A stretch of 13,580 nt of DNA, taken from positions 1-13,580 of the IMG/VR virus record IMGVR_UViG_3300045988_031658; one strand, given 5' to 3'. The notes under the pieces were generated by a model, which was not told where the DNA came from, made no database searches, and was given only the letters and a program-made list of their open reading frames with translations. The stretch comes from a virus. Positions 1,399-13,430 of the stretch are shown here, one piece after another. Position numbers and translations under genes: made by a program. The first letter of the stretch is position 1. Each line of letters starts with the position of its first letter.

Positions 1399-1933
1399 AC
1401 CGGAATCAGAGTTAAGAAAAGAATATTCAAGACTTAGAAAAATCGCTCAGAAAAGACTCGCCCGGTTCGTTGGAACCGAGTGGGAAAAGAGCGAAGTGTT
1501 CAAAAGAAATTATGGTAAATATCCAGTTCTGACCGATATCAAATCGCCAACCCAACTTCGTTACGAACTTGCCGCTCTGGCGCGATTTATAAATGCGGAA
1601 ACATCCTCTGTATCTGGTCTTAAACGACAGAGAGCAAAGACAATAGAAACACTTAAAGATAAAGGTTACAACTTCGTAAACAGAAAGAATTTTTTCAAAT
1701 TTACGGATTTCATGGATTCATTCAGAAATATGCAACTCAACAGAATTTATGACAGCGAAGCGGCATTAGCAGTATTCGAAGCTGGGGAACGGTTTAAGAT
1801 TCCAGAAGAAGAGCTTAAGAGCAAATTTGAAGAGTATCTATCCAAAGCAGATGAGATAGAAAATATGGAAATTCCTAGAAACCCAAAAGCGCGAAACTCG
1901 GAATATATCAGGAGAAAATTGGGGATTAAATGA
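1328..1933 (+). CDS. Candidate terminal protein (protein primer) for DNA replication (201 aa)
   Basis: It lies immediately upstream of the protein-primed PolB and is translationally coupled to it (ATGA at 1930-1933), as gene 3 is to gene 2 in phi29. It has a basic helical N-terminus (KEYSRLRKIAQKRLARF) reminiscent of the phi29 TP N-terminus (AEYARLVKNTKAKIARTKKKYG, recalled from memory). The RBS is AAGGGAG. Confidence 0.5.
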   Translation: MAKQKQAKLEWDLMSYMPAFSTAKPESELRKEYSRLRKIAQKRLARFVGTEWEKSEVFKRNYGKYPVLTDIKSPTQLRYELAALARFINAETSSVSGLKRQRAKTIETLKDKGYNFVNRKNFFKFTDFMDSFRNMQLNRIYDSEAALAVFEAGERFKIPEEELKSKFEEYLSKADEIENMEIPRNPKARNSEYIRRKLGIK

Positions 1934-3909
1934 TAGTAAATTGCGAAGAGTTTGACTTTGATTGGTATGAGTCAATACAACGGGAAAAACGTAAAAGAGG
2001 TAATCAGGGAGGAAGCTCCAAAAAAGATTACAAATCTATAATAACAGCCTTTGATATTGAGACATCTAGAATCAAAGCAATCGAGCAATCTATTATGTAC
2101 ATCTGGCAATGGCAGTTTGACGAGGAATACACGGTTATAGGGCGCACATGGGAACAGTTTAACGATTTCGTTCAGAAGCTTAAAGACCGAATGAAACCGA
2201 GAGAAAACCTTGTCGTATATGTTCACAATCTATCCTATGAATTTCAATTTCTTAGGGGCATATACAATTTCACGTCTGATGAAGTTTTTGCACTAAAGAA
2301 GCGTAAAGTCTTGAAATGTACCATGCATGGATTCCTAGAGTTCCGATGTAGTTACATTCATAGCAATATGTCACTTGCGGAATATACGCGCAAGATGGAG
2401 GTGAAGCACCAAAAACTGGACGGGGAAGACTTTGATTACAACGAAGAACGCTACCCATGGACAGTTTTAACAGATAGACAGTTAGACTATTGTGTAAACG
2501 ACGTTTTAGGTCTGGTTGAAGCAATCAAAAAGGAAATGCAAATTGACGGCGACAACCTATATACAATCCCTCTCACATCGACAGGATATGTTCGTCGCGA
2601 TGCGAAACAGGCAATGCGATTAGTCCGCTATGGATATGTATCCAGTATGCTTCCAGACCTTGAAACATACAAGGCACTTAGAGAAGCTTTCAGAGGTGGA
2701 AACACACACGCAAACCGTTTCTACTCCGATATGAAACTGGAAAACGTTCATTCCTTCGACCGTTCAAGCAGTTACCCCGATGTAATATGCAATTGTGAAT
2801 ACCCTATCAGCGCATTTTATCACGCCGGAGCATGCACAGCAGAACAGCTTCTAGACCTGATAAACAGGCGACACAAAGCAGTTCTGATGCGAATAGGAAT
2901 CGTCAATCCTAAACTAAAAGTTGGACAAGGCTGTCCCTACATAAGCAAGGATAAAAGCCGTATGATAAAGAACGGATTATACGACAATGGACGTGTCCTA
3001 GAAGCGGAGTATTTAGAGACAACAATAACAGATATAGACCTAAAAATAATCATGATAGAATATGATTTCGATGACCTGATTCCGCTGGACGTATACCATG
3101 CAAGATACGGCAAACTCCCGAAACCCTTCATCGACCTGAACATATCATATTACAGAAGCAAGACAAGGCTTAAAGACGTTGAGGGAGAAGAGATATTCTA
3201 CATGAAGTCAAAGAACAAGCTTAACGCAATATACGGCATGACAGCACAGGACCCTGTACGACAGGAGATAGAATTCATGGCTACACAGGGATTCACAGAG
3301 CGAACAGATGACATAGGAGAGCTACTATCGAGTTCAAACAAGAGAGCCTTCCTACCCTACCAATGGGGAGTCTGGACAACAGCACATGCCAGATGGAGAC
3401 TTGAAGAAGGCATCCAGATAGCAGGAGAAGGATTCGTCTATTGTGACACGGACAGCGTAAAATATATCGGACAAGCTGACTGGACAGCTTACAACGAGCT
3501 TCGCATTGCAGACAGCTTAGAGTCTGGCGCATACGCAGAAGACCCACACGGTAACGTTCACTACATGGGCGTATACGAATCAGAAGGCACCTATGACTAC
3601 TTTAAAACACTAGGGGCAAAGAAATATGCCTATGTAAAGAACGGACGCTTGACGGTCACAATCGCAGGAGTAAACAAGAAAAAAGGTTCCATCGAACTGG
3701 GAACCATAGATAAGTTCAAAGAGGGATTCATCTTCTCAGACGCAGGAGGAACCGAGTCTGTCTACAACGACGAGCCAGAAATAGCTTCCTATGAGATTGA
3801 CGGAAAGATAATTGCCATCACATCTAATGTGGTATTGAAAGATTCAACCTACACGTTGGGAGTAACAGCCGATTATCGACGACTTTTGGACGAGTCAAGA
3901 ATAGCATAA
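1930..3909 (+). CDS. Protein-primed family-B DNA polymerase (phi29 gp2-like, 659 aa)
   Basis: The motifs occur in the canonical order: Exo I AFDIETS, Exo II HNLSYEFQF, Exo III YCVNDV, motif A FDRSSSYP (DxxSxYP), motif B KLNAIYG, motif C YCDTDS and KxY (GAKKYAY). Confidence 0.93.
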   Translation: MIVNCEEFDFDWYESIQREKRKRGNQGGSSKKDYKSIITAFDIETSRIKAIEQSIMYIWQWQFDEEYTVIGRTWEQFNDFVQKLKDRMKPRENLVVYVHNLSYEFQFLRGIYNFTSDEVFALKKRKVLKCTMHGFLEFRCSYIHSNMSLAEYTRKMEVKHQKLDGEDFDYNEERYPWTVLTDRQLDYCVNDVLGLVEAIKKEMQIDGDNLYTIPLTSTGYVRRDAKQAMRLVRYGYVSSMLPDLETYKALREAFRGGNTHANRFYSDMKLENVHSFDRSSSYPDVICNCEYPISAFYHAGACTAEQLLDLINRRHKAVLMRIGIVNPKLKVGQGCPYISKDKSRMIKNGLYDNGRVLEAEYLETTITDIDLKIIMIEYDFDDLIPLDVYHARYGKLPKPFIDLNISYYRSKTRLKDVEGEEIFYMKSKNKLNAIYGMTAQDPVRQEIEFMATQGFTERTDDIGELLSSSNKRAFLPYQWGVWTTAHARWRLEEGIQIAGEGFVYCDTDSVKYIGQADWTAYNELRIADSLESGAYAEDPHGNVHYMGVYESEGTYDYFKTLGAKKYAYVKNGRLTVTIAGVNKKKGSIELGTIDKFKEGFIFSDAGGTESVYNDEPEIASYEIDGKIIAITSNVVLKDSTYTLGVTADYRRLLDESRIA

Positions 3910-3925
3910 AATTTAAATAAAGTGC

Positions 3926-3954
3926 TTGACAAAATACATATAATCATTTATAAT
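3926..3954 (+). promoter_or_regulatory. Promoter P2 (upstream of ssb)
   Basis: The -35 TTGACA is at 3926-3931, followed by a 17-nt spacer and a consensus -10 TATAAT at 3949-3954. It lies in an AT-rich intergenic region. It shares the 12-mer GCTTGACAAAAT with P3. Confidence 0.75.
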
Positions 3955-4000: not shown

Positions 4001-4369
4001 ATGAACAGAGCAATTATTGTAGGAAGGTTAACACGCGACCCGGAAATCAGATATAGTGCAGGTAGTGAACCAATGGCAGTTGCCAATTTCACACTGGCTG
4101 TTCCACGATGGAACGATGAAGAAGCAGATTTCATTCGCTGTGTAGCATTCGGAAAAAAAGGAGAGTTTGCCGAAAACTACCTGTTCAAGGGAACAAAAGT
4201 TATCCTGGAGGGGCATATCGTAACAGGCAAGTATGAACACAAAGACGGATACACCGTATACACAACAGACGTTGTAGCAGACTCCATTGAGTTTGCAGAA
4301 AGCAAGAAAGACGAAGATTCAGAAACAAGTAAACCAGCAACCAAAAAACCATATCAGAAAAGGAGATAA
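4001..4369 (+). CDS. ssb: Single-stranded DNA-binding protein, bacterial OB-fold type (122 aa)
   Basis: The N-terminus MNRAIIVGRLTRDPEIRY...ANFTLAV...DFIRCVAFGK..AE....KG..V.EG matches the canonical SSB OB-fold signature. The C-terminus is basic (KKPYQKRR) rather than the acidic D-D-D-I-P-F-type tip. Confidence 0.88.
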   Translation: MNRAIIVGRLTRDPEIRYSAGSEPMAVANFTLAVPRWNDEEADFIRCVAFGKKGEFAENYLFKGTKVILEGHIVTGKYEHKDGYTVYTTDVVADSIEFAESKKDEDSETSKPATKKPYQKRR

Positions 4370-4562: not shown

Positions 4563-4588
4563 AAGAGCCGCAAGGCTCTTTTTCTTTT
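4563..4588 (+). terminator. Rho-independent terminator
   Basis: A 7-bp stem AAGAGCC/GGCTCTT encloses a GCAA (GNRA) loop and is followed by TTTCTTTT. Confidence 0.75.
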
Positions 4589-4605: not shown

Positions 4606-5637
4606 ATGAATCTATATCTTGACAACGGATATGTAAATATAAGAGGAATTATTGAGCTAGGATTGCCATTCAATTTTATTGTCGGAGGACGAGGAACAGG
4701 AAAAACATATGGCGCGTTACAGGTTATGGAAGAGGATAGATATAAGTTCGTGTTCATGCGTCGAACACAGGCGCAAGCCGATATGATTAGCACTCCTGAG
4801 TATAACCCATACAAGAAATTAAACTTCGATAAAGGATGGAATATTGGATGCGCAAAGATAAATAAAATGACCAGCGGATTCTATGAGATGCAGAACATCA
4901 ATGGAAAAATGAAGCCAGAAGGAGAACCAAAAGCAATCATTCTAGCCTTGTCAACCATCGCAAACATGAGAGGTTTTGATGCGAGCGATTACGAAATTCT
5001 TCTATATGATGAGTTTATTCCAGAGAGTCACGAACGCCCCATAAAAGAAGAAGGAAAAGCGTTTAAGAACGCCTATGAAACAATTAACAGAAACAGAGAA
5101 TTAGAAGGCCATAAACCCGTTCAATGTATTTGTTTAGCAAACTCAAACACGATGACAAACGCCCTGTTTCTTGAATTAGGATTGGTCAAGAAAGCAGAAG
5201 AAATGCGAAGACGAGAACAAGAATATTCCATCATGAGAGAACGCGGCATAGGACTCTTTGTTTTGCGCGAAAGTGACATATCTGAAAAGAAAGCTGACAC
5301 GGCTTTATACAAGCTGGGAGGAAGCGACGAGTTCAACCGAATGGCATTATCGAACGAATTTGTAACAGACGAAATCGGAAGAATAAAAAGCAGGAATTTA
5401 GTCGAATATCGCGCCGTTGTAACAATAGGAGAGATAACCATTTACAAGCACAAAAGCAAACCACTTTTGTATGTCTCCACACACCTTTCGGGAACGTGTC
5501 CACAATTCGGTTCTGGCGACATAGACAGGTCAAGATTCAAGAAAAAATTCTTCTGGTTATGGTCTTCATACATGAAGAATAATATCGAATTTGAAGAATA
5601 TTTATGTGAAATTCTGTTTAACAAATATTTTGAATAA
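4606..5637 (+). CDS. DNA encapsidation (packaging) ATPase, phi29 gp16-like (343 aa)
   Basis: The blocks NFIVGGRGTGKTYG (Walker A), FVFMRRT, LLYDEFIPE (Walker B) and NRNRE...VQCICLANS are colinear with phi29 gp16 NFVIGARGIGKSYA / FIYVRRY / IVFDEFI / FRNRERVRCICLSNA (recalled from memory). The RBS is AAGGAGG. Confidence 0.88.
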   Translation: MNLYLDNGYVNIRGIIELGLPFNFIVGGRGTGKTYGALQVMEEDRYKFVFMRRTQAQADMISTPEYNPYKKLNFDKGWNIGCAKINKMTSGFYEMQNINGKMKPEGEPKAIILALSTIANMRGFDASDYEILLYDEFIPESHERPIKEEGKAFKNAYETINRNRELEGHKPVQCICLANSNTMTNALFLELGLVKKAEEMRRREQEYSIMRERGIGLFVLRESDISEKKADTALYKLGGSDEFNRMALSNEFVTDEIGRIKSRNLVEYRAVVTIGEITIYKHKSKPLLYVSTHLSGTCPQFGSGDIDRSRFKKKFFWLWSSYMKNNIEFEEYLCEILFNKYFE

Positions 5638-5657
5638 AATTTTTCTGAAAATAAAGC

Positions 5658-5686
5658 TTGACAAAATTTTCCAAAAGTGGTATATT
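5658..5686 (+). promoter_or_regulatory. Late promoter P3
   Basis: The -35 TTGACA is at 5658-5663, followed by a 17-nt spacer and the -10 TATATT at 5681-5686, preceded by TGg (extended -10). The architecture matches P1. The predicted +1 is around G5693. Confidence 0.75.
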
Positions 5687-5692
5687 TATATA

Positions 5693-5762
5693 GAGGACTA
5701 GTGGTCAGACGCAAGCCCCGGAAGGGTTGACACATCGCGGCGGCGATAGGAAGCTAGTCCTC
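5693..5762 (+). ncRNA. Unclassified structured 5' leader RNA (three-way junction)
   Basis: P1 pairs 5693-5702 with 5753-5762 (GAGGACUAGU/GCUAGUCCUC, 9 Watson-Crick pairs plus 1 GU). P2 is a hairpin at 5717-5726 (CCC-GGAA-GGG, GNRA loop). P3 is a hairpin at 5734-5747 (AUCGC-GGCG-GCGAU). G+C is 43 of 70 nt inside an AT-rich intergenic region. The element starts at the predicted P3 +1. Confidence 0.5.
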
Positions 5763-5795
5763 ACTTCTAAATTGGGGCGGAAAGAGAGGGCATAT

Positions 5796-5963
5796 ATGAC
5801 ATTAACCGAAATGACACAGTTGCTCGCGAATGGAGGAACATTGGCGGTGCTGATGTACTTTATGTTTGTAAAATCTGACGCACAGTCGCAGGCAATTGGA
5901 AAGCTTACAACGGCAGTTGAGAAGCTGAACATTCTCTTGCAGAGTAAGGAGGACGAAGGGTGA
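5796..5963 (+). CDS. BhlA/UviB-like holin (55 aa)
   Basis: MTLTEMTQLLANGGTLAVLMYFMFVKSD... has one N-terminal TM helix followed by a charged coiled tail. This pattern matches BhlA (..ITQYLSTQGPFAVLFCWLLFYVMKTSK.., recalled from memory). An ATG with a GAGAGGG RBS 5 nt upstream is preferred over the track's TTG at 5727. It lies directly upstream of the endolysin. Confidence 0.6.
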   Translation: MTLTEMTQLLANGGTLAVLMYFMFVKSDAQSQAIGKLTTAVEKLNILLQSKEDEG

Positions 5964-6514
5964 AAATTATGTTCGAAGACGTTACCGAAATGCCAGAAAT
6001 CAGGGTAAATGGTAAAATCTACGCTCCTGTTTCAGAGGACAAGCCAGCAAAGAAAGTTACATTATATGACATCATTGCGGGTAAACACGGGGCAAAAGAA
6101 TGGGACGATGTAGTCGGAATGATACAGACATGGTATTACGGCTCTTACGTCAAAGCATCATGGTGTGCGACAACGGTTTCATGGGCGGCGGCAAGCATGG
6201 GGATTCTTGACCAGATAGGCGGCAAAAATGAAAATGTATATCACATGATGAATGCATGTTCAAAAAGTGGAAAAGGTAAATTTTTCAGTAAGAAAGCAGG
6301 AAATATCCCGACAAAAATTGAACAGGGAGACATCCTGTTTTATCTGTGGGACGGAGACACAATGAAGGTTGATTCTTCAAAACATGTCAGCGTTGCCGCA
6401 GAAACAACAAGCAGTAATCAGATATTGTCAGAAGGTGGAAACCAGAAGGACAAGATTTGCAGACTTTACTATGAGAAAGCAAAATTATATGCCGTATTTA
6501 GGCCAGATTATTAA
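5960..6514 (+). CDS. Endolysin, CHAP/NlpC-P60-like cysteine peptidase (TIGR02594-like, 184 aa)
   Basis: It has a catalytic-Cys context SWCATTVSW, a His context SKHVSVAA and a GGNQKDKI motif, arranged as in the WCAAFV...GHVG...GGNQ family. GTG at 5960 lies 7 nt after GGAGG and overlaps the holin stop (GTGA). An alternative ATG lies at 5969. Confidence 0.65.
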   Translation: MKIMFEDVTEMPEIRVNGKIYAPVSEDKPAKKVTLYDIIAGKHGAKEWDDVVGMIQTWYYGSYVKASWCATTVSWAAASMGILDQIGGKNENVYHMMNACSKSGKGKFFSKKAGNIPTKIEQGDILFYLWDGDTMKVDSSKHVSVAAETTSSNQILSEGGNQKDKICRLYYEKAKLYAVFRPDY

Positions 6515-6525
6515 AGGAGGTAAAC

Positions 6526-6825
6526 ATGGATATTAAAGACATTATCGCTCTTGCGAACGCCGGATTCACGGCTCAGCAGATTGCCACAATGGCGACGACA
6601 GCACAAGCACCAGCACCAGTTCCAGCACCAGCACCAGCACCAGTTCCAGCACCAGCACCAGCACCAGTTCCAGTTGACCCTATCATGGAACAGTTAAAGG
6701 CGCTTACAACGGCGGTGCAGACAAACGCAATTATCAATAGCCAGTTGCCGATTACTCAGCCAGAAACGCCGGAGGATATACTGGCAAGTATTATTAATCC
6801 GCCAACAATTGTAAACAATAAATAA
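6526..6825 (+). CDS. Putative scaffolding protein with an Ala-Pro repeat linker (99 aa)
   Basis: This 99-aa ORF lies immediately upstream of the capsid gene, comparable to the roughly 100-aa phi29 gp7 in the same position. It has a helical N-terminus (DIIALANAGFTAQQI) and C-terminus joined by (APAPAPVP)n. The RBS is AAGGAGGTAAAC. Confidence 0.5.
   Translation: MDIKDIIALANAGFTAQQIATMATTAQAPAPVPAPAPAPVPAPAPAPVPVDPIMEQLKALTTAVQTNAIINSQLPITQPETPEDILASIINPPTIVNNK
6607..6672 (+). repeat. Perfect tandem repeat, 24-nt unit GCACCAGCACCAGCACCAGTTCCA, about 2.75 copies
   Basis: There is an 18-nt partial copy at 6607-6624 and full copies at 6625-6648 and 6649-6672. The repeat encodes APAPVP(APAPAPVP)2. 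Confidence 0.9.
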
Positions 6826-6835
6826 GGAGGTAAAC

Positions 6836-8008
6836 ATGGCCGCAAACGATTTAAGTTTTAACCAGTTGTCAACAGTATTAAACAGTATTGTTGCACAGGC
6901 AACAGGAAAGAATCCATTAGCAATTACTAACACTTCTGAGTTTATTTCGGTAGCTCAGACGGCACTTAAAACTGGATATGACCCGTTATTACAATCAATC
7001 TCACAGGTGTTATCAAGAACTATTTTTTCTACCAGGCCATACTACAGAAAGTTTGGTGGTATTCAGGTAGATAACCAGAAATGGGGAAACATCACAAGAA
7101 AGCTTAATATTTCCGACAAGGATTGGGAAAATGATGTGCGATTTGAGCTTGTTGATGGCGAATCAGTTGACATGTACAAGGTTAACAAACCTAACATTTT
7201 ACAGACAAACTTTTACGGCGCAAACGTGTATGAAAGAAGCTACACAATCTTCAAAGACCAGCTCGACTGTGCATTCTCCGGACCTGATGAGTTCGCCAGA
7301 TTCTTAAGCATGGTGACAGGAAACTGCACCGACATGATTGAACAGGCCCATGAGAATCTTGCAAGAGCTACCGTGGCAAACTACATCGGAGGTAAAGTTA
7401 AAGGTGACGCAGACAGTTGTATCCATCTTCTGACAGAGTATAACGCGCTTACAGGGCTTGCTCTTACGAAGGAAAATGTATATCAGCCGGCTAATTACAA
7501 GCCATTCATTGACTGGGTTTATAGCCGTATCGCTACCCTGACAGAGCTTATGACAGAGAGAAGCCAGCTTTTCCATACTAACATCACTGGCAAGACAATT
7601 AACCGTCATACACCGTTACAGAGACAGAGAGTTTATTTATATGCTCCTGCAAGATTCAATATCGAGTCTATGTCTCTGGCAAATACATACAACTATAATT
7701 TCCTTAAGATGGCCTACAATGAAACTGTGAACTATTGGCAGTCCATACAGAGTCCATCTAAGATTAATGTGAAGCCGTCTTATTTAAAGGCTGATGGAAC
7801 AATTACAACGCCAGAAGCTGCGCTGGAACAGGATGACATCTTCGGTGTAATCTTCGATGAAGAAGCACTCGGATACACGGTAATGAACCAATGGTCAGCT
7901 ACTACACCATTCAACGCAAAGGGTGGATATTCTAACGTATTCTTCCACTTTACAGACCGTTTCTGGAATGACTTTACAGAAAACGGATTAGTACTTTTAC
8001 TCGATTAA
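6836..8008 (+). CDS. Major capsid protein (390 aa)
   Basis: The call rests on position after the scaffold gene, size, and a strong AAGGAGGTAAAC RBS. The N-terminus (LSFNQLSTVLNSIVAQATG...) resembles the phi29 gp8-type start (ITFNDVKTSLGI..., recalled from memory). No alignment was computed. Confidence 0.65.
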   Translation: MAANDLSFNQLSTVLNSIVAQATGKNPLAITNTSEFISVAQTALKTGYDPLLQSISQVLSRTIFSTRPYYRKFGGIQVDNQKWGNITRKLNISDKDWENDVRFELVDGESVDMYKVNKPNILQTNFYGANVYERSYTIFKDQLDCAFSGPDEFARFLSMVTGNCTDMIEQAHENLARATVANYIGGKVKGDADSCIHLLTEYNALTGLALTKENVYQPANYKPFIDWVYSRIATLTELMTERSQLFHTNITGKTINRHTPLQRQRVYLYAPARFNIESMSLANTYNYNFLKMAYNETVNYWQSIQSPSKINVKPSYLKADGTITTPEAALEQDDIFGVIFDEEALGYTVMNQWSATTPFNAKGGYSNVFFHFTDRFWNDFTENGLVLLLD

Positions 8009-8020
8009 GGAGGTATTTAA

Positions 8021-9436
8021 ATGGGCATATCAGTGAATATGTATACGTTTAGCAAATATGCTAACTCAACGGAACAGCCAGCAGGAGCCGGGACAAGCTT
8101 TGATTGTGTACTGAAAGATACAAGCGGAGTAATTAATCCTACTATCGCTCTGAAACTTGATATGTCCTTTAATGTCTCTGCCTACAACTATGCCTATATC
8201 CCGGATTTTGAAAGATATTATTTCGTCCGTGAATGGACATGGGAACGCGGCCTTTGGGTTGCCAGTTTGGATGTAGATGTTCTTGCCACATACAAGGCGC
8301 AGATTGGCGTTTCAACTCAGTATGTGTTACGCAGTTCTCTTGCATCAAACGGCAAAATACTTGATACTATTTATCCTACCACAAGTGACATCACGCATCA
8401 GCGTGTAGCTGTAGAACTTCCATGGAAGATTCATTTAGAGGATGGTTACTATGTGGTAGGTATAATAGGTGACGCGAATAACACGTTGGGAGCGGTAAAC
8501 TATTACGCGTTTACGCAGTCAGAAATGAATGCCTTTAACAAGGCTCTGATGGCGAGTGCAGACTGGTTAAATGTTCCTACAGAGGAAATATCAACAGAGC
8601 TTTTAAAAGCTCTATATAACCCCTATCAATATGTTGTTAGCGCATTGTGGTTTCCTAGAGTAATACCGCTTACAGAAGCTCCGGCAGTTGCAAGTATCAA
8701 CTTCGGTTGGTGGAGCATTACTGTTAAATGCAGGAAGTTAAAAGCGACGGCTACATCGTTCAGCGGTTCGATTAATATTCCGAAGCATCCACAAGCCGCA
8801 ACAAGGGGAGAATACCTTAACCTTTCTCCGTACAGCAGATACACATTAAACTTCACTCCGTTTGGTTCTTTTCCTCTAGATACAACGAAGCTTTCAGGGA
8901 CAAGCATCTTGAATTACACAGTGCTGATTGACTACATAAGTGGAACAGGAAGACTCAACATTGCTCCGCAGTTTCCAGATGGAAACAGCCCAATTATTGA
9001 ATCGGTTGAGGGAATGTGTTCAGTTCCGATTCAGCTTGCGCAGATTGCCAGAGATTACATAGGAACCACGGCTACCGCCATTGCTTCCGTTGGGGACGTG
9101 GTGCAGAGTGCAGTAACTGGAAACATTGGAGGAGCAATATCCAACTTTGCTTCTGGAATTGACAGTACTTTGAAAGCCGCCGCTCCGCAGTTAAGGACAT
9201 CAGGTGGAAATGGTAATACATCTAACTTTATCACGGCTCCACAGTTATATTGCCAGTTCTTTAATCTGGTTCAGGAGTATAACGAGAAGTTGGGTAGACC
9301 GCTTTGTGAAGCAAGAGTTATCAATACAATACCGGGGTATATTATGTGCATGGATGCAGACGTTAAAACAGCTTCTACACAGACGGAGAATGAAAGAATC
9401 AAGGAGTACATGGAAGGGGGATTTTATTACGGCTAG
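8021..9436 (+). CDS. Tail knob / distal tail tube protein, phi29 gp9-like (471 aa)
   Basis: The blocks YIPDFERYYFVREWTW...LDVDVLATY, APQLRTSGGNGNTS and ENERIKEYMEGGFYY parallel phi29 gp9 KWFYAFVTELEF...FEIDVLQTW, IPPQLTKMGGNTAF and LQEIRTIFDNGITLW (recalled from memory). Confidence 0.78.
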   Translation: MGISVNMYTFSKYANSTEQPAGAGTSFDCVLKDTSGVINPTIALKLDMSFNVSAYNYAYIPDFERYYFVREWTWERGLWVASLDVDVLATYKAQIGVSTQYVLRSSLASNGKILDTIYPTTSDITHQRVAVELPWKIHLEDGYYVVGIIGDANNTLGAVNYYAFTQSEMNAFNKALMASADWLNVPTEEISTELLKALYNPYQYVVSALWFPRVIPLTEAPAVASINFGWWSITVKCRKLKATATSFSGSINIPKHPQAATRGEYLNLSPYSRYTLNFTPFGSFPLDTTKLSGTSILNYTVLIDYISGTGRLNIAPQFPDGNSPIIESVEGMCSVPIQLAQIARDYIGTTATAIASVGDVVQSAVTGNIGGAISNFASGIDSTLKAAAPQLRTSGGNGNTSNFITAPQLYCQFFNLVQEYNEKLGRPLCEARVINTIPGYIMCMDADVKTASTQTENERIKEYMEGGFYYG

Positions 9437-10082
9437 TTGGCACGCTAAGAAGACCGGAGGATACTCAAGAACTTCTATAGAAGCAATCGATAATGCGAAC
9501 ATGATATACGCAGTTTTATACAATAAAGGCTGGACACTTAACGCAATATGCGGAGTGCTGGGAAACATGGGAGCGGAGAGCGGATACAATCCGTGGAGAT
9601 GGCAGAGTGATAAGATAGGAGTCTCTACAGGCTCTCCATGGACAAACAAAGGATACGGACTCGTCCAGTTCACTCCGGGCGGTAAATATATCAATGACAC
9701 CAGAGCGAAAGCAATGCCGGGATATGGACCTAACTTTTCTGATAAAGTGGGAAATGTTGCAGACGGAAATGCACAGATATTATTTGTAGATTCGTATGCA
9801 GACTATTACCCTACAGGTGCCTATCCGATGAGCTTCGCAGAGTTCAAGACAAGCACTAAAGACCCGGGAACTTTGGCTAAAGCATGGTTGTATAATTATG
9901 AAAGACCAGAAGACCCGGGAGCTACCGAATCGGCCAGAGCAGAGAATGGAAAGTATTGGTTTCAGGTATTAAGCGGTGAGATACCCCCTGACCCACCAGA
10001 CCCACCAGACCCACCAGACCCACCCGGACCGTCTGGACATCTTGAAATATGGATGTATTTTAAATTGAAAGAAAGGAGGTAA
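9390..10082 (+). CDS. Tail-associated peptidoglycan hydrolase (phage tail lysozyme domain, PF18013-like); start uncertain
   Basis: GWTLNAICGVLGNMGAESGYNP...GYGLVQFT is the signature of the phage tail-tip lysozyme family. The frame is open from 9195. The first plausible ATG (9390) overlaps the knob gene by 47 nt and has GGAGA with zero spacing. No good start exists after the knob stop. Confidence 0.6.
   Translation: MKESRSTWKGDFITASWHAKKTGGYSRTSIEAIDNANMIYAVLYNKGWTLNAICGVLGNMGAESGYNPWRWQSDKIGVSTGSPWTNKGYGLVQFTPGGKYINDTRAKAMPGYGPNFSDKVGNVADGNAQILFVDSYADYYPTGAYPMSFAEFKTSTKDPGTLAKAWLYNYERPEDPGATESARAENGKYWFQVLSGEIPPDPPDPPDPPDPPGPSGHLEIWMYFKLKERR
9990..10025 (+). repeat. Tandem 9-nt repeat GACCCACCA x4 (last copy has 1 mismatch), encoding (DPP)4
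   Basis: The copies are at 9990-9998, 9999-10007, 10008-10016 and 10017-10025. Confidence 0.9.
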
Positions 10083-10086
10083 ACAG

Positions 10087-11040
10087 ATGCAAGCACCTAT
10101 GTTTTATGACCACATAAATGCAAAAGAATCGATGGTTAGCCCAAGCACAATGAAGGTTCACAATACCGGGCTTTACAGGCAGTTCCAGAGATATCTATTG
10201 CAAGAAGCTATGTCTCCTTTCAAATTCACTTTCCCTAAAACATGGGCGAAAGATTATGTGCTATATGTGCTTTATTTGTGGGGGTACTTTGCAATCTTTA
10301 ACACGGACAAGTTCGGAGTAATTCCACAGCAGTGCGGTCTTTACGGATACGACGTTTTCTACAGACCAACGCATTGCATCATTACAAATCCTCTGTTCAA
10401 GGAAACGTATTATCCTAAGATTGGCAAGGACTGTACGTTGATTAAATTACAGCCTGATTATGGCGGCATTATGGACATCGTTTCATACTATGCGGAAATG
10501 ATGGCTCTGTGTTCGGAGAGCGTTGCTGTTAACCTTGTAAACTCAAAGCTTTCATATGTGTTCTTTGCTAAGGGTACTAAGGAAGGAGAAGAGCTTAAAA
10601 AGATTTATGACCAGGTGGGAGCAGGAGAGCCTTGCGTTGTTGCTGATAAGAAATTTAGAGATGAAGACGGCTCTCTCGCATGGGAAATGTTCGACCGAAA
10701 TGTGAAGAACAATTATATTGCCAGTGATATCCTTAGTGACATGAAAAAGATTAAGGCAATGTTCGACACCGAGATTGGTATTCCTAATACGAATACCGAT
10801 AAGAAGGAGAGAATGATTACCAGTGAAGTTCTGAGTAACAACGTCGAGACGCTTAGCAAATGTGAGTTGTGGCTGGAAGAATTACAGGCCAGGTTTGAAG
10901 AAGCAAGGAATATGTTCGGATTTAGCAAAGAGGAACTTAATGTGGAGTGGAGATTCGACTTGACGAAAGGAGGTAATATGGATGAGAGCGACGCTATCAA
11001 TATTGGGGCTGTACCAACGGGAACCGACTCTGTTCGATGA
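10087..11040 (+). CDS. Portal / upper collar connector protein, phi29 gp10-like (317 aa)
   Basis: NTNTDKKERMITSEVLSNNVE parallels phi29 gp10 [21 protein letters not shown] (recalled from memory). The size is similar to gp10 (309 aa). The RBS is AAAGGAGGTAAAC. Confidence 0.85.
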   Translation: MQAPMFYDHINAKESMVSPSTMKVHNTGLYRQFQRYLLQEAMSPFKFTFPKTWAKDYVLYVLYLWGYFAIFNTDKFGVIPQQCGLYGYDVFYRPTHCIITNPLFKETYYPKIGKDCTLIKLQPDYGGIMDIVSYYAEMMALCSESVAVNLVNSKLSYVFFAKGTKEGEELKKIYDQVGAGEPCVVADKKFRDEDGSLAWEMFDRNVKNNYIASDILSDMKKIKAMFDTEIGIPNTNTDKKERMITSEVLSNNVETLSKCELWLEELQARFEEARNMFGFSKEELNVEWRFDLTKGGNMDESDAINIGAVPTGTDSVR

Positions 11041-11713
11041 GCTGGAATTGCCAGCGGGTATGAAAAAAGATGTTCTTATAGATAATATTTTGTATGAAGC
11101 GGCGTCGCTTGAAGCCTATTACCCGGACCCTAATTTCATGAAATTTATGATTGGACGTTGGTCGTTTATGAATCAGAGTATCTGGCAGAAACTCTATGAC
11201 ACAACTGTTCTGGAATACAATCCAATTTACAACTATGACAGAACGGAAGAGTGGACAGAGAATGAAAAAATGCTGGATAGCAGAACAGCCGCTGGTAATG
11301 AACTTGAGACTCGTAACTTGAAATCCGGGGAGACATCTAGGACAGATTCAAATGGGGATGTTACAACTACGGGAACTATGAAAACAGAGTTGAACGTGTC
11401 GGGGTATAATGAAGTAACGTTTACTCCTAGTGAAGAAACAATTGAAACTCCCGATACTATGACATCCAATAATGTAATAGTTGATGGGACTAGAGATTCT
11501 ACCGATACTGGAACAGTGTCTATTGACAAAAAAGATACTGAAAGCTTGGACAGAAAAAGAGATAATTTGAGAACTGGAAGAGCTTTTGGTAACATCGGTG
11601 TTACTACCACACAGCAGATGATACAACAGGAAAGAGAGACGGTTTTGTTCAATATGTACAAGGTTATTACCGATTCCTTTGTTGACAGATTTTGCTTGAT
11701 GGTTTACACATAA
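10982..11713 (+). CDS. Lower collar / head-tail connector protein, phi29 gp11-like (243 aa)
   Basis: It lies directly after the portal gene as in phi29. It has the N-terminal pattern LGLY..EPTLFDEL.LP.G..KDVLIDNIL......YYPDP.F......WS and YNPIYNYDRTEEW, typical of this protein class as I recall. GGAGG lies 8 nt before the ATG. It overlaps the portal gene by 59 nt. Confidence 0.6.
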   Translation: MRATLSILGLYQREPTLFDELELPAGMKKDVLIDNILYEAASLEAYYPDPNFMKFMIGRWSFMNQSIWQKLYDTTVLEYNPIYNYDRTEEWTENEKMLDSRTAAGNELETRNLKSGETSRTDSNGDVTTTGTMKTELNVSGYNEVTFTPSEETIETPDTMTSNNVIVDGTRDSTDTGTVSIDKKDTESLDRKRDNLRTGRAFGNIGVTTTQQMIQQERETVLFNMYKVITDSFVDRFCLMVYT

Positions 11714-11725
11714 GGAGGTGAAACA

Positions 11726-12559: not shown

Positions 12560-12573
12560 TAGGAGGTTATTAT

Positions 12574-13392: not shown

Positions 13393-13395
13393 TAT
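13367..13395 (+). promoter_or_regulatory. Promoter-like motif at the right end (function doubtful)
   Basis: TTGACA at 13367-13372 is followed by a 17-nt spacer and TAATAT at 13390-13395, the same architecture as P1-P3. However, it lies inside the 3' end of the last CDS and points at the terminator and right ITR. Confidence 0.25.
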
Positions 13396-13399
13396 TATT

Positions 13400-13430
13400 G
13401 AGCGTACATTTAGGTGTACGCTCTTTTCTT
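13400..13430 (+). terminator. Rho-independent terminator of the late operon
   Basis: A 9-bp stem GAGCGTACA/TGTACGCTC (13400-13408 / 13415-13423) encloses the loop TTTAGG and is followed by TTTTCTT. Confidence 0.85.

What the first reader, a model, noticed from the sequence alone, without database searches (positions are those of the whole stretch)
5693..5762. GC-rich three-way-junction RNA at the +1 of the late promoter, between the packaging ATPase and the holin
The first 70 nt of the predicted P3 transcript fold into a closed three-way junction. P1 is a 10-bp terminal helix (5693-5702 with 5753-5762). P2 is a hairpin with a GGAA GNRA loop (5717-5726). P3 is a GC hairpin AUCGC-GGCG-GCGAU (5734-5747). 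The junction strands are GGUCAGACGCAAG, UUGACAC and AGGAA. The element has 43/70 G+C in an AT-rich spacer, the classic signature of a structured RNA. I could not match it to any riboswitch or ribozyme consensus I know. There are three hypotheses.
- It could be a ligand- or protein-responsive leader that times expression of the holin, the very next gene, and the whole late operon.
- It could be a compact analogue of the phi29 packaging RNA. The phage has a gp16-type ATPase, the element is adjacent to that gene and its ends are paired as in pRNA. However, it is much shorter than pRNA and its two loops are not mutually complementary.
- It could be merely a 5'-terminal stabiliser stem against 5'-exonucleolytic decay, as known in Bacillus and phage SP82 mRNAs.
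A weak alternative pairing exists between GCCCC (5715-5719) and GGGGC (5774-5778) just upstream of the RBS.
Basis: partly seen in the sequence, partly recalled or inferred. Interest (0 to 1): 0.7.

Follow-up and report, generated by a model that had tools for sequence, protein, structure and literature searches.

The report
Miniature pRNA-like RNA in gut phages
The 70-nt element is a real, strongly conserved folded RNA made at the very start of the late transcript of a large family of tiny phi29-like gut phages. Its layout copies the core of the phi29 packaging RNA, a molecule so far known only from Bacillus phages.

Summary
The element at 5693-5762 is real. A covariance model finds one copy per genome, always on the late-gene strand. 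It hit 81 of 100 sources at default settings, and 12 of the 15 re-searched with filters off. Seventy distinct sequences show 91.5% pairing against 56.5% in shuffles.

P2 was mis-drawn: it is a 4-bp outer helix, a 7-nt bulge on the 5' side, and a 4-bp inner hairpin with a CGGAA pentaloop. This pairing is 3-5 Watson-Crick pairs in all 70 sequences, with about 25 different codes.

This is the same order of parts as the phi29 pRNA core: A helix, C helix, CE bulge, E hairpin, D hairpin, CE:D pairing. The phage also encodes a gp16-type ATPase and a gp10-type connector.

Full-size (~108 nt) pRNA-like RNAs turned up in cultured Clostridium phages CI55P1 and phiCPV4, and the mini form in Amedibacillus phage AD70P2.

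Best reading (about 0.5): a reduced pRNA-type packaging RNA made as the 5' end of the late mRNA.

Main rival (about 0.3): a cis-acting leader.

Against membership:
- no Rfam hit
- short P1
- no terminator
- different junction strands
- no basic connector N-terminus

The parts
5658..5686 (+). Sigma-A type promoter: -35 TTGACA (5658-5663), 17-nt spacer, extended -10 TGgTATATT (5678-5686). The start is predicted at about 5692-5693.
   Evidence: 11 of 12 matches plus TG. An equivalent promoter precedes the element in nearly all relatives, with the -10 ending 4-8 nt (mode 6) before the first P1 pair.
5693..5702 (+). P1 5' strand (GAGGACUAGU). It pairs with 5753-5762.
   Evidence: pair probability at least 0.97. 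P1 is 92% paired across 70 distinct sequences, and all 9 modelled pairs show changes on both sides.
5704..5707 (+). P2 outer helix 5' strand (GUCA). It pairs with 5728-5731 (UGAC).
   Evidence: columns 11-14 with 38-41 are 100% paired, and all 4 pairs show changes on both sides.
5708..5714 (+). 7-nt bulge on the 5' side of P2 (GACGCAA). C5710-G5711-C5712 pair with the P3 loop.
   Evidence: all 70 distinct sequences have 3-5 contiguous Watson-Crick pairs between bulge and P3 loop, nearly always starting at bulge position 3. There are about 25 pairing codes, and 0 of 2000 permutations reach the observed value. The last bulge base is A in 69 of 70.
5715..5727 (+). P2 inner hairpin: GCCC (5715-5718), pentaloop CGGAA (5719-5723), GGGU (5724-5727).
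   Evidence: columns 23-26 with 34-37 are 100% paired, with G-C, G-U, C-G, A-U and U-A types. The loop is C-N-R-A-A, with C, A and A invariant in 70 of 70.
5728..5731 (+). P2 outer helix 3' strand (UGAC). It follows the inner hairpin directly, with no unpaired base on the 3' side.
5734..5747 (+). P3 hairpin: AUCGC, loop GGCG (5739-5742), GCGAU. G5740-C5741-G5742 pair with the bulge.
   Evidence: the 4 core pairs are about 100% paired, with many changes on both sides; loop-to-bulge pairing.
5748..5752 (+). Junction strand between P3 and P1 (AGGAA). The family consensus is A-N-K-A, and the last A is present in 69 of 70.
5753..5762 (+). P1 3' strand (GCUAGUCCUC).
5773..5778 (+). Downstream segment UGGGGC, complementary to GCCCCG (5715-5720: the P2 inner 5' strand plus the first loop base). 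It lies 6 nt before the ribosome-binding site.
   Evidence: duplex -12.5 kcal/mol, z about -2 for this clade. Covarying counterparts occur in other clades: AGCCGGA:UCCGGCU, GGCCGGA:UCCGGCC, CCCGGA:UCCGGG and CGGACGGA:UCCGUCCG. The feature is not universal.
5784..5963 (+). Ribosome-binding site (GAGAGGG, 5784-5790) and the first late gene (5796-5963). The gene encodes 55 aa with one hydrophobic segment. It is holin-like by position only.
   Evidence: No Pfam or PHROG hit.
4606..5637 (+). gp16-type DNA-packaging ATPase gene, directly upstream of the promoter.
   Evidence: Pfam Podovirus_Gp16, E = 4.8e-14. phrog_2150. phi29 gp16 structure 7JQQ, E = 3.2e-9.
10087..11040 (+). Upper collar connector (portal) gene, gp10-type. 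Its N-terminus (MQAPMFYDHINAKES) lacks the basic cluster of phi29 gp10.
   Evidence: phrog_2038, E = 2.3e-25. N-termini compared.

Best explanation
**What it is.** The element is a member of a large, previously undescribed family of 66-70-nt RNAs (longer in divergent members). They are encoded by very small (about 11-14 kb) phi29-like phages of gut and rumen Firmicutes.

**Shown: the structure**
- The RNA begins at or within a few bases of the transcription start of the late (lysis and structural) operon.
- It folds into a closed three-way junction with three arms.
  - P1 pairs the 5' and 3' ends.
  - P2 is a helix interrupted by a 7-nt bulge on its 5' strand and capped by a conserved CGGAA pentaloop.
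  - P3 is a hairpin whose loop is Watson-Crick complementary to the P2 bulge.

**Inferred: the function**
- It is a reduced packaging (prohead) RNA of the phi29 pRNA type.
- P1 corresponds to the A helix. P2 outer, the bulge and P2 inner correspond to the C helix, CE bulge and E hairpin. P3 corresponds to the D hairpin.
- The bulge-to-loop pairing joins neighbouring molecules into a ring on the connector of the prohead, where the ring docks the gp16-type ATPase.

**Inferred: how the RNA is produced**
- The RNA has no terminator of its own.
- The 5'-triphosphate end is closed by P1, which should block 5' exonuclease.
- 3' exonucleases working back from a cut in the A/U-rich spacer should stall at P1.
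- The result would be a stable species of about 70 nt, made in step with the structural proteins.
For: **Reality and conservation**
- Models R1 and R2 find exactly one copy per genome, always on the late-operon strand.
- R2 hit 81 of 100 sources at default settings. With filters off it hit 12 of the 15 re-searched.
- Across 70 distinct sequences, 91.5% of cells are paired against 56.5% in shuffles. The covariation score is 0.872 against 0.183 (0 of 500 shuffles reach it). Slid controls give 0.08-0.11.

**Bulge-to-loop pairing**
- It was not part of the model, yet all 70 sequences have it, with 3-5 Watson-Crick pairs and about 25 codes.
- The mean is 4.14 for a sequence's own partners against 2.37 for other sequences' partners. 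None of 2000 permutations reach the observed value.
- G-U pairs (22 of 70 at one position) fit only the + strand.

**Same plan as pRNA**
- The Rfam structure line for phi29 pRNA reads: A helix, C helix, 9-nt bulge on the 5' side, E hairpin, contiguous 3' strand, UUU, D hairpin, A helix.
- In pRNA the CE bulge and D loop pair between molecules (PMC5066667). Known pRNAs show the same loop-for-loop covariation of 3-4 nt (PMC12670572).
- A 71-nt pRNA core construct is about the same size as this element.

**Motor proteins present**
- A gp16-type ATPase and a gp10-type connector are encoded in the window.

**Exclusive association with these phages**
- In a sample drawn without reference to the ATPase, 17 of 17 loci with the element encode the ATPase and lie on contigs of at most 14.2 kb. 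None of the 63 loci with chance motif matches does.
- Among 185,579 reference genomes, the only true copy found for the one 18-mer tested is on a 13.5-kb contig.

**Bridging forms in cultured relatives**
- Clostridium phage CI55P1 has an RNA of about 108 nt. It has a roughly 24-bp A helix, junction strands 0/UU/0 (phi29: 1/UUU/0) and UACCA:UGGUA pairing. Relatives show compensatory changes.
- phiCPV4 has a similar RNA at the 5' end of its late operon.
- Both phages keep the basic connector N-terminus.

**The start coincides with P1**
- The -10 element ends 4-8 nt before P1 in most relatives.
Against: - Rfam RF00044 does not match the element, and R2 does not match phi29 pRNA. Homology to pRNA therefore rests on architecture alone.
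- P1 is 8-13 bp without conserved bulges. The phi29 A helix, which carries the ATPase, is about 25 bp with bulges.
- The junction strands are placed differently: 0-1, 1-2 and 3-5 nt here against 1, 3 and 0 in phi29. This predicts a different coaxial stack.
- There is no terminator after the element in nearly all members. A discrete RNA would need processing, which is not shown.
- Across genome rearrangements, the element stays with the late promoter and not with the ATPase gene. A cis role would also explain this.
- The connector N-terminus of all mini-RNA phages examined lacks the basic cluster present in phi29, CI55P1 and phiCPV4. It has 0-2 K/R in the first 15 residues (3 in L131) against 4-5. 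In phi29 that cluster is held to contact pRNA (my knowledge of the phi29 literature).
- The P2 outer helix (4 bp) and the P3 stem (3-6 bp) put the bulge and the loop at similar heights. An intramolecular pseudoknot is therefore sterically plausible. Sequence cannot tell intra- from intermolecular pairing.
- Several clades carry a covarying downstream complement to P2, which hints at a cis switch.
Confidence: 0.5

Rival explanations
1. The element is a cis-acting 5' leader of the late operon. The three-way junction folds on itself, with the bulge-to-P3-loop pairing as an intramolecular pseudoknot. It works only as part of the mRNA. It could protect the long transcript from 5' decay. It could also act as a binding site or switch, through the CGGAA loop, that sets translation of the first late gene.
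For: - It always lies at +1 of the late promoter, with no terminator before the genes.
- It follows the promoter and operon when the operon lies on the other strand, far from the ATPase gene.
- A segment just before the ribosome-binding site is complementary to the P2 inner 5' strand plus loop. It covaries in at least five clades.
- The similar heights of the bulge and the P3 loop allow an intramolecular contact.
- The phi29-type basic connector motif is absent.
Against: - The downstream complement is missing in most clades. There only the G-rich ribosome-binding site matches the C-rich strand, with z near 0 to -1.5. So there is no common expression platform.
- A 5' stabiliser needs only a terminal stem, not a conserved junction, bulge, pentaloop and tertiary pairing.
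- The first downstream gene differs between clades, so no gene-specific control is conserved.
- This reading does not explain why the architecture copies pRNA part for part.
- It also does not explain why full-size pRNA-like RNAs sit at the same place in phiCPV4 and CI55P1.
Confidence: 0.3
2. The element is a processive antitermination RNA like put of phage HK022 (or EAR of Bacillus). The nascent structured RNA binds the RNA polymerase that made it and carries it through terminators in the roughly 8-kb late operon.
For: - The position right after the promoter of a long operon, and the size of about 70 nt, fit a put-like element (established knowledge of HK022 put).
- No Q- or N-like protein is evident among the small early genes. 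This is only weak evidence, because most of them have no family hit.
Against: - The consensus scan finds no strong terminator inside 5763-13399 on the + strand. The only strong ones are at 4563-4580 and 13400-13423.
- put RNAs are two stem-loops without closed ends or a bulge-to-loop pairing.
- There is no Rfam hit to any antitermination RNA.
Confidence: 0.05
3. The element is a riboswitch aptamer for a small molecule that reports host state.
For: - It is a closed three-way junction with a tertiary loop contact in a 5' leader. This is a common aptamer design, as in purine riboswitches (established knowledge).
- Some bases are invariant: loop C, A and A, the last bulge A, and an A in the P3-to-P1 strand.
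Against: - The junction strands are short and variable, so no conserved pocket is evident.
- There is no terminator or consistent structure hiding the ribosome-binding site.
- There is no Rfam match.
- The element is confined to one phage group.
Confidence: 0.05
4. The element is a self-cleaving ribozyme or a tRNA-like processing signal whose only job is to cut the 5' leader off the late mRNA.
For: - Small pseudoknotted ribozymes such as pistol, twister and hammerhead are common in phage genomes (established knowledge).
- The bulge-to-loop contact resembles tertiary contacts that stabilise such folds.
Against: - No hit to any Rfam ribozyme, even at E up to 10 on a 161-nt search.
- ARAGORN finds nothing.
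- Too few invariant bases lie in the junction for a catalytic core.
Confidence: 0.03

Closest known systems
phi29 prohead/packaging RNA (pRNA; Rfam RF00044), Bacillus phages of Salasmaviridae
   Same: - It is encoded by a protein-primed phi29-like podovirus with a gp16-type ATPase and a gp10-type connector.
- The transcript starts at the base of a helix that pairs the 5' and 3' ends.
- It has a three-way junction. One arm is a helix, then a bulge on the 5' side, then a short hairpin, with an unbroken 3' strand. The other arm is a hairpin.
- The bulge and the hairpin loop are complementary over 3-5 nt and covary, while the primary sequence drifts.
- The element is about the size of the pRNA prohead-binding core (roughly 62-71 nt).
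   Different: - It is 66-70 nt against 117-174 nt.
- The terminal helix is 8-13 bp without bulges, against about 25 bp with functionally important bulges.
- The C-equivalent helix is 4 bp against 9.
- The unpaired junction bases sit between P3 and P1 rather than between C and D.
- There is no terminator, and the element is fused to the late mRNA rather than being a separate early gene at the genome end.
- There is no match to the Rfam model.
- The connector lacks the basic N-terminal cluster.
- Neither a packaging role nor ring formation is shown.
Full-size pRNA-like RNAs found here in Clostridium phages CI55P1 (OP172759, 4764-4871) and phiCPV4 (NC_018083, 16183-16290, minus strand)
   Same: - They have the same plan and the same bulge-to-loop pairing (UACCA:UGGUA and GCCA:UGGC).
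- They sit directly after a promoter at the head of the operon that carries the packaging and structural genes.
- phiCPV4 has a GGAA-containing E loop (GUGGAA).
   Different: - They are about 108 nt with a 20-24-bp A helix interrupted by loops.
- The C helix is 7-9 bp.
- CI55P1 has phi29-like junction strands (0/UU/0) and a U-run after the A helix.
- Their connectors keep the basic N-terminus.
- They are not detected by model R2, and they are themselves unannotated and untested.
put RNAs of phage HK022 (cis-acting processive antitermination)
   Same: A structured RNA of about 70 nt is transcribed immediately after a phage promoter that drives a long operon, and no dedicated protein is needed.
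   Different: - put is two independent stem-loops with no closing helix, no junction and no bulge-to-loop pairing.
- put needs downstream terminators to act on, and none is evident here.
5'-terminal stabiliser stems of Bacillus and phage mRNAs (for example the SP82 early RNA stabiliser and the ermC and aprE leaders)
   Same: A stable helix begins within a few nucleotides of the 5' end, which is the known requirement for blocking 5'-end-dependent decay in Firmicutes.
   Different: Stabilisers need only a stem. They show no conserved multi-helix architecture, invariant loop or covarying tertiary pairing.

Membership tests
phi29-type pRNA | Encoded by a phi29-like phage that also encodes the gp16-type packaging ATPase and the gp10-type connector | tested here: met
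   - Pfam Podovirus_Gp16, Phi29_MCP and DNA_pol_B_2.
- gp16 structure 7JQQ, E = 3.2e-9.
- phrog_2038 upper collar connector.
- The element co-occurs with the ATPase in 17 of 17 loci, and in none of 63 without it.
phi29-type pRNA | Scores against the Rfam covariance model RF00044 | tested here: not met
   No RF00044 match at E up to 10, on the whole window or on 5640-5800 alone. The model scores 145 bits on phi29 itself.
phi29-type pRNA | The 5' and 3' ends are paired in a terminal A helix that starts at the transcription start | tested here: met
   P1 is 10 bp here and 8-13 bp in relatives, and it covaries. The -10 element ends 4-8 nt before P1 in most relatives.
phi29-type pRNA | Long A helix (about 25 bp) with conserved bulges, the part that carries the ATPase | tested here: not met
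   P1 is a plain helix of 8-13 bp. The long form exists only in CI55P1 and phiCPV4.
phi29-type pRNA | Three-way junction whose arms are C helix, bulge on the 5' side and E hairpin, followed by the D hairpin, in that order | tested here: met
   The consensus structure from 70 distinct sequences matches the RF00044 structure line.
phi29-type pRNA | The CE bulge and D loop are Watson-Crick complementary and covary | tested here: met
   All 70 sequences have 3-5 pairs, with about 25 codes, and 0 of 2000 permutations reach the observed value. Further codes were seen in divergent members.
phi29-type pRNA | That pairing is intermolecular and builds a ring on the prohead | not testable with these tools
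   Sequence does not distinguish intra- from intermolecular pairing. This needs trans-complementation of loop mutants, native gels or cryo-EM.
phi29-type pRNA | Junction strands of 1, 3 (UUU) and 0 nt, giving A-D coaxial stacking | tested here: not met
   The strands here are 0-1, 1-2 and 3-5 nt. CI55P1 has 0, UU and 0.
phi29-type pRNA | A separate small RNA gene with its own promoter and terminator | tested here: not met
   The promoter is present, but there is no terminator between the element and the first late gene.
phi29-type pRNA | The connector has a basic N-terminal cluster (phi29 gp10: MARKRSN) that contacts pRNA | tested here: not met
   The window connector starts MQAPMFYDHINAKES. 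The mini-RNA phages examined have 0-2 K/R in the first 15 residues (3 in L131). phi29, CI55P1 and phiCPV4 have 4-5. The role of the cluster in phi29 is from my knowledge of the phi29 literature.
phi29-type pRNA | Required for DNA packaging, present on proheads and absent from virions | not testable with these tools
   This can only be tested by experiment.
put-type antitermination RNA | Two stem-loops acting in cis on terminators downstream in the same operon | tested here: not met
   The architecture differs. No strong terminator-like site lies inside the late operon.
Riboswitch | A conserved ligand pocket in the junction plus an expression platform (terminator or masking of the ribosome-binding site) | tested here: not met
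   The junction strands are short and variable. There is no terminator. A downstream complement exists only in some clades. There is no Rfam match.
5'-terminal mRNA stabiliser | A stable stem within a few nucleotides of the 5' end | tested here: met
   P1 starts at the predicted +1. This is a property the element has, not a full account of it.

The most novel reading that the evidence does not exclude
The RNA has two jobs and so couples head assembly to lysis.

- While still attached to the late mRNA, its P2 inner strand and CGGAA loop can pair with a segment just before the ribosome-binding site of the first late gene, a holin-like protein. This would hold back translation of that gene.
- Once cut free or captured by proheads, the same RNA forms a minimal 67-nt packaging ring through bulge-to-loop kissing.
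- It would do this without the long A helix and without the basic connector tail that phi29 needs.

That would make it both the smallest known packaging RNA and a sensor that times lysis to capsid production.
Probability: 0.12. Interest if true: 0.92.

Novelty: new variant of a known kind. Interest (0 to 1): 0.8.

Why it matters
- **pRNA beyond Bacillus.** Since 1987, pRNA has been treated as a curiosity of phi29 and its close Bacillus relatives. [quoted passage not shown] A 2025 search that used phi29, GA1 and DLc1 pRNAs as templates added 12 more (PMC12670572). How the many other phi29-like phages dock their gp16-type ATPase has been an open question.
- **What this finding adds.** It puts pRNA-shaped RNAs into hundreds of gut, rumen and Clostridium phage genomes, in two sizes. 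The relatives include cultured phages (AD70P2, CI55P1, phiCPV4 and kin), so the question can be tested at the bench.
- **If the 67-nt form is a working packaging RNA.** It would define the minimal RNA needed for such a motor. It would show that the long A helix and the basic connector tail are dispensable. It would offer a compact three-way-junction scaffold with about 25 natural orthogonal pairing codes for RNA nanotechnology.
- **If it is a cis-acting leader.** It would be a new class of phage regulatory RNA that has converged on the pRNA fold.

Tried and rejected
- **Rfam.** Searched the whole window and a 161-nt slice at E up to 10. Only noise came back, and no pRNA, ribozyme, riboswitch or leader family matched.
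- **ARAGORN.** No tRNA or tmRNA.
- **Single-sequence MFE.** It keeps P1 but gives an interior that the homologues do not share, so it was not used for the structure.
- **Nucleotide search of the phage collection.** Only one weak ATPase-gene match. Relatives had to be found through the ATPase protein.
- **First MAFFT alignment of hand-cut elements.** It was out of register for P1 and P3. It was replaced by alignments fitted to a covariance model.
- **Hand-written descriptor for the pRNA plan, run on ten genomes.** It recovered the true elements, but it also gave about one hit per kb in shuffled sequence. It cannot be used to survey other families such as Cp-1 or the staphylococcal phages, and it was dropped.
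- **CsrA binding to a GGA hairpin loop.** Considered and rejected, because CUGAA, CUAAA and CAGAA loop variants lack GGA.
- **GNRA tetraloop reading of the P2 loop.** Rejected by covariation.
- **Downstream pairing to P2 as a universal switch.** Rejected as universal. It is clade-specific.
- **14-mer motif scan.** It mostly returned chance matches on large contigs. It became useful only after filtering with the model.
Full report
**Context**

The window is almost certainly a near-complete genome of a very small phi29-like podovirus. All genes lie on the + strand.
- Protein-primed type B DNA polymerase: 1930-3909.
- SSB: 4001-4369.
- gp16-type packaging ATPase: 4606-5637.
- Small hydrophobic protein: 5796-5963.
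- Endolysin-like protein: 5960-6514.
- phi29-type major capsid protein: 6836-8008.
- Tail lysozyme, and a gp10-type upper collar connector at 10087-11040.

The ATPase matches the phi29 gp16 chain of the packaging-motor structure 7JQQ (E = 3.2e-9). The closest cultured relatives are Amedibacillus phages AD70P2 and AD70P3 (Guelinviridae; ATPase about 35% identical). All closer relatives are metagenomic contigs of 11-14 kb from gut and rumen samples.

**Checking the observation**

A near-consensus sigma-A promoter ends 6 nt before G5693. Its parts are TTGACA at 5658-5663, a 17-nt spacer, and TGgTATATT at 5678-5686.

The 70-mer folds better than all 200 dinucleotide shuffles (z = -3.07). The MFE keeps only P1.

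Rfam gives nothing for the element at E up to 10, on the whole window or on a 161-nt slice. ARAGORN finds nothing.

**Relatives and structure**

I searched public viral contigs with the ATPase protein. In nearly every relative (ATPase identity 36-100%), the spacer after the ATPase gene holds a promoter followed by a recognisably similar element.

I built a covariance model from twelve well-aligned members. I refitted it on 27 hits and ran it over 100 sources, including 80 loci from a metagenome scan. That scan found at least 532 ATPase relatives.
- The model hit 81 sources, once each, always on the strand of the late genes.
- With filters off it recovered 12 of the 15 missed loci that were re-searched.
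- Several of the rest are contigs that end before the spacer.

On the 70 distinct sequences, the results were as follows.
- 91.5% of cells form a standard pair, against 56.5% in shuffles.
- The covariation score is 0.872 against 0.183 (0 of 500 shuffles reach it). It falls to 0.08-0.11 when partners are slid by 1-3 columns.
- The two halves of P2 are each 100% paired, and all of their pairs show changes on both sides.
- The four core pairs of P3 are about 100% paired. P1 is 92% paired.
- One caveat applies: the alignment was fitted to these nested helices, which favours them.
- Frequent G-U pairs fit only the + strand. One example is 22 of 70 at the pair closing the inner P2 helix.

The corrected anatomy in the window is listed below.

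| Part | Coordinates | Sequence or note |
|---|---|---|
| P1 | 5693-5702 with 5753-5762 | 10 bp including one G-U |
| Junction P1 to P2 | 5703 | G |
| P2 outer helix | 5704-5707 with 5728-5731 | GUCA / UGAC |
| Bulge on the 5' side | 5708-5714 | GACGCAA |
| P2 inner helix | 5715-5718 with 5724-5727 | GCCC / GGGU |
| Pentaloop | 5719-5723 | CGGAA |
| Junction P2 to P3 | 5732-5733 | AC |
| P3 | 5734-5738 with 5743-5747 | AUCGC / GCGAU |
| Junction P3 to P1 | 5748-5752 | AGGAA |

Sequences such as GCUC-CGGAA-GAGC, CAGC-CGGAA-GCUG and ACCG-CGGAA-CGGU fix the pentaloop. Invariant or nearly invariant unpaired bases are:
- the loop C, A and A;
- the last bulge A;
- one G in the P3 loop;
- the last A of the P3-to-P1 strand.

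**The tertiary pairing**

The model cannot encode pseudoknots, so the next result is independent of it.
- In all 70 distinct sequences, the P2 bulge has 3-5 contiguous Watson-Crick pairs with the P3 loop. The pairing almost always starts at bulge position 3.
- There are about 25 codes, including GUGC:GCAC, GAGC:GCUC, GGGC:GCCC, GGAC:GUCC, AGUCA:UGACU, UAGCA:UGCUA, UGUCA:UGACA, ACACC:GGUGU and GCACA:UGUGC. In the window the code is CGC:GCG (5710-5712 with 5740-5742).
- Own-sequence complementarity averages 4.14 pairs, against 2.37 for bulges paired with loops of other sequences. None of 2000 permutations reaches the observed mean.
- Divergent members missed by the model add further codes, seen by eye. 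Examples are UAUCC:GGAUA in phage AD70P2, AAUCA:UGAUU, UCAGC:GCUGA, ACUAC:GUAGU, GUCG:CGAC and GCUA:UAGC.

**Comparison with pRNA**

I ran Rfam on phi29 itself to get the curated pRNA structure line. It reads in this order:
1. A helix.
2. C helix.
3. A 9-nt bulge on the 5' strand (the CE loop).
4. E hairpin.
5. An unbroken 3' strand.
6. UUU.
7. D hairpin.
8. A helix.

In pRNA, the CE bulge (AACC) pairs with the D loop (GGUU) of the neighbouring molecule to form the ring on the prohead (PMC5066667). Known pRNAs show loop-for-loop covariation of 3-4 nt (PMC12670572).

The element here has the same parts in the same order, and the same kind of covarying bulge-to-loop complementarity. It is about the size of the pRNA prohead-binding core. 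For comparison, a 71-nt core construct has been crystallised.

The differences are real.
- No sequence or model similarity in either direction.
- P1 is only 8-13 bp.
- The C-equivalent helix is 4 bp.
- The unpaired junction bases lie between P3 and P1 rather than between C and D.

**Bridging forms (outside the window)**

*CI55P1.* Cultured Clostridium phage CI55P1 has only a 34-nt gap after its ATPase gene. It has a 150-nt gap before it. That gap holds an extended -10 promoter and an RNA of about 108 nt.
- The MFE shows an A helix of 10+7+7 bp, a 9-bp C helix with a 1-nt bulge, and a 6-nt bulge on the 5' side (AUACCA).
- It also shows an E hairpin, a UU linker, and a D hairpin (loop CUGGUAA) that abuts the A helix. 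A U-run follows.
- The junction strands (0, UU, 0) are those of phi29. The bulge pairs with the D loop (UACCA:UGGUA).
- Thirteen relatives (ATPase 86-100% identical) show compensatory changes in the A, C and D helices.

*phiCPV4.* This is the type Guelinviridae phage of Clostridium perfringens. It has a similar RNA of about 108 nt directly after a promoter at the head of its late operon.
- Features: A helix 13+7 bp, C helix CACAGAC/GUCUGUG, bulge CGCCA, E hairpin GGG-GUGGAA-CCC, D loop UGGC, pairing GCCA:UGGC.
- The stretch is unannotated in nearly all of 17 C. perfringens phage records. phiZP2 and CPS2 show compensatory changes.

Rfam does not detect the CI55P1 RNA. These two RNAs make it likely that pRNA-type RNAs are widespread in clostridial phi29-like phages. 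They also show that a position at the 5' end of the late operon is compatible with a pRNA-like architecture.

**Association and exclusivity**

Most relatives were found through the ATPase, so I also sampled by a 14-mer of the RNA itself.
- Of 80 loci, 17 carry the full element by the model.
- All 17 lie on contigs of at most 14.2 kb and encode the ATPase. The 63 chance matches, many on contigs of 25-177 kb, have neither.
- An 18-mer scan of 185,579 reference genomes gave 26 matches. Only one is a full element, and it lies on a 13.5-kb contig binned with a Clostridia MAG.

The element is therefore confined to this phage group, as far as these motif-limited scans can show.

**Position**

A near-consensus promoter precedes almost every copy. 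Its -10 element ends 4-8 nt (mode 6) before the outermost P1 pair in most relatives, so the RNA 5' end is the base of P1.

No terminator follows. After 10-55 nt of A/U-rich spacer come a ribosome-binding site and the first late gene. This gene is usually a small protein with a G-F-P-I motif, but it differs in some clades.
- In MT835998 the late operon lies on the other strand. The element sits with that operon's promoter, 8 kb from the ATPase gene. L190 and L197 are similar.
- In L034, L106, L114 and L198 an insert separates the element from the ATPase gene.

The constant partner is thus the late promoter and operon, not the ATPase gene.

**Evidence that cuts the other way**

*Downstream complement.* A segment just before the ribosome-binding site is complementary to the P2 inner 5' strand plus loop, and it covaries in several clades.

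| Clade or locus | P2 segment : downstream segment |
|---|---|
| L085 clade | AGCCGGA : UCCGGCU |
| L084 | GGCCGGA : UCCGGCC |
| L093 | CAGCCGGA : UCCGGCUG |
| L055 | CCCGGA : UCCGGG |
| MT835998 | CGGACGGA : UCCGUCCG |
| Window clade | GCCCCG : UGGGGC (5715-5720 with 5773-5778) |

It is absent from most clades. It suggests that at least some lineages use the element in cis as well.

*Connector N-terminus.* phi29, CI55P1 and phiCPV4 connectors begin MARKRSN, MSSKRRK and MSKRKS. All of these phages have long RNAs. The connectors of all mini-RNA phages examined begin with a conserved non-basic motif (M-x-A-P-x-F-Y-D-Y-I-N-A). They have 0-2 K/R in the first 15 residues, or 3 in L131. In phi29 the basic cluster is held to contact pRNA (my knowledge of the phi29 literature). 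The mini RNA, if it binds the connector, must therefore do so differently.

*Geometry.* The P2 outer helix (4 bp) and P3 (3-6 bp) put the bulge and the loop at similar heights. An intramolecular pseudoknot cannot be excluded.

**Verdict**

*Shown*
- A new, large, strongly covarying RNA family with a defined three-way junction and a bulge-to-loop tertiary pairing.
- It is transcribed from +1 of the late promoter of small phi29-like phages.
- Its architecture maps part for part onto the pRNA core.
- Full-size pRNA-like RNAs exist in related cultured phages.

*Inferred*
- It acts as a reduced packaging RNA (confidence about 0.5).
- It is released or left over from the late mRNA.

*Main rival*
- A cis-acting leader with an intramolecular pseudoknot (about 0.3).
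- The two readings are not mutually exclusive.

*Membership and novelty*
- Strict membership in the Rfam pRNA family fails. Several defining features are not met or cannot be tested, so I file it as a new variant of a known kind rather than as a member.
- The literature held here treats pRNA as restricted to phi29 and related Bacillus phages.

Noticed in passing
L130 (Clostridium phage CI55P1, OP172759) 4752-4880, + strand: An unannotated RNA gene of about 108 nt lies between the DNA polymerase and ATPase genes. It has a promoter and a long A helix followed by a U-run. It also has a C helix with a 6-nt bulge on the 5' side, an E hairpin, a UU linker and a D hairpin. The pairing is UACCA:UGGUA, and the junction strands are as in phi29 pRNA. 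Relatives L132-L144 show compensatory changes. Rfam does not detect it.
   Followed up: partly
L268 (Clostridium phage phiCPV4, NC_018083) 16183-16290, - strand: A pRNA-like fold of about 108 nt lies directly after a terminator and a promoter, at the head of the late operon. The pairing is GCCA:UGGC, and the E loop is GUGGAA. The stretch is 90-100% conserved and almost always unannotated in 17 C. perfringens phage records. phiZP2 and CPS2 show compensatory changes.
   Followed up: partly
L045 (Amedibacillus phage AD70P2, OP172638) about 5846-5917, + strand: This cultured phage carries a divergent copy of the mini element after its ATPase gene (loop UCGAA; bulge UAUCC pairs with P3 loop GGAUA). 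Model R2 missed it, and I found it by eye. It is a ready experimental system.
   Followed up: partly
Window 10087-10131, and connector genes of L038, L041, L046-L048, L131, L145, L153, L182, L190, L193, L196, L202, L205, L208: Connector N-termini fall into two classes. Phages with long pRNA(-like) RNAs (phi29, CI55P1, phiCPV4) have a basic start (KRK or RKR). Most phages with the mini RNA have a conserved non-basic, aromatic-rich start (M-x-A-P-x-F-Y-D-Y-I-N-A). What the second motif does is unknown.
   Followed up: partly
Window 5773-5778; L046 about 12872-12879 (- strand); L071, L077, L078, L084-L086, L089, L093, L107, L116, L117, L055 and L114 downstream of the element: A segment 5-20 nt before the ribosome-binding site of the first late gene is complementary to the P2 inner 5' strand plus the CGGAA loop. 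It covaries with that strand in several clades but is absent in most. It may be a clade-specific cis switch or a mask on the precursor.
   Followed up: partly
L123, about 3560-3700: A larger variant (about 125 nt) lies at the same place. It has a 12-bp P1, a 6-bp outer P2, the bulge UGUACAG and a P3 loop CCGUACA (UGUAC:GUACA). The CGGAA hairpin is replaced by two hairpins. A strong extra hairpin (GUCACAG-CUC-UGUGAC) follows.
   Followed up: partly
L096 1449-1492: This copy lacks P3 and the 3' half of P2 (GAGAAGGGGGUUGCACAAAGUCACAGCCGGAAGCAACCCCCUUCUC). It is either a defective genome or an assembly artefact.
   Followed up: no
L046 (MT835998) 12899-12967, - strand; also L190 and L197: In some relatives the late operon runs on the strand opposite to the ATPase gene. 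The element sits at the far end of the genome with the late promoter, and a terminator hairpin follows the ATPase gene instead.
   Followed up: partly
L013, L014, L063, L065, L068, L088, L091, L095, L097: 20-45 nt after the element: A conserved near-perfect palindrome (for example GUGUAUAC-AA-GUAUACAC) lies between the element and the ribosome-binding site in one group of clades. It could be an operator, an RNase III site or another RNA hairpin.
   Followed up: no
Window 4563-4580 and 13400-13423; 3926-3954 and 139-167: A bidirectional terminator-like hairpin lies just before the ATPase gene, so ATPase expression may depend on read-through from the perfect-consensus promoter at 3926-3954. A strong terminator closes the late operon at 13400-13423. 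Another good promoter lies at 139-167.
   Followed up: no
Window 7947-8029: There is a weak, sub-threshold Rfam match to RAGATH-19 (22 bits, E = 8). It rests on a 14-bp hairpin (ACCGUUUCUG...CAGAAAACGG) at the end of the capsid gene. It is probably just a stem-loop between the capsid gene and the next gene.
   Followed up: no
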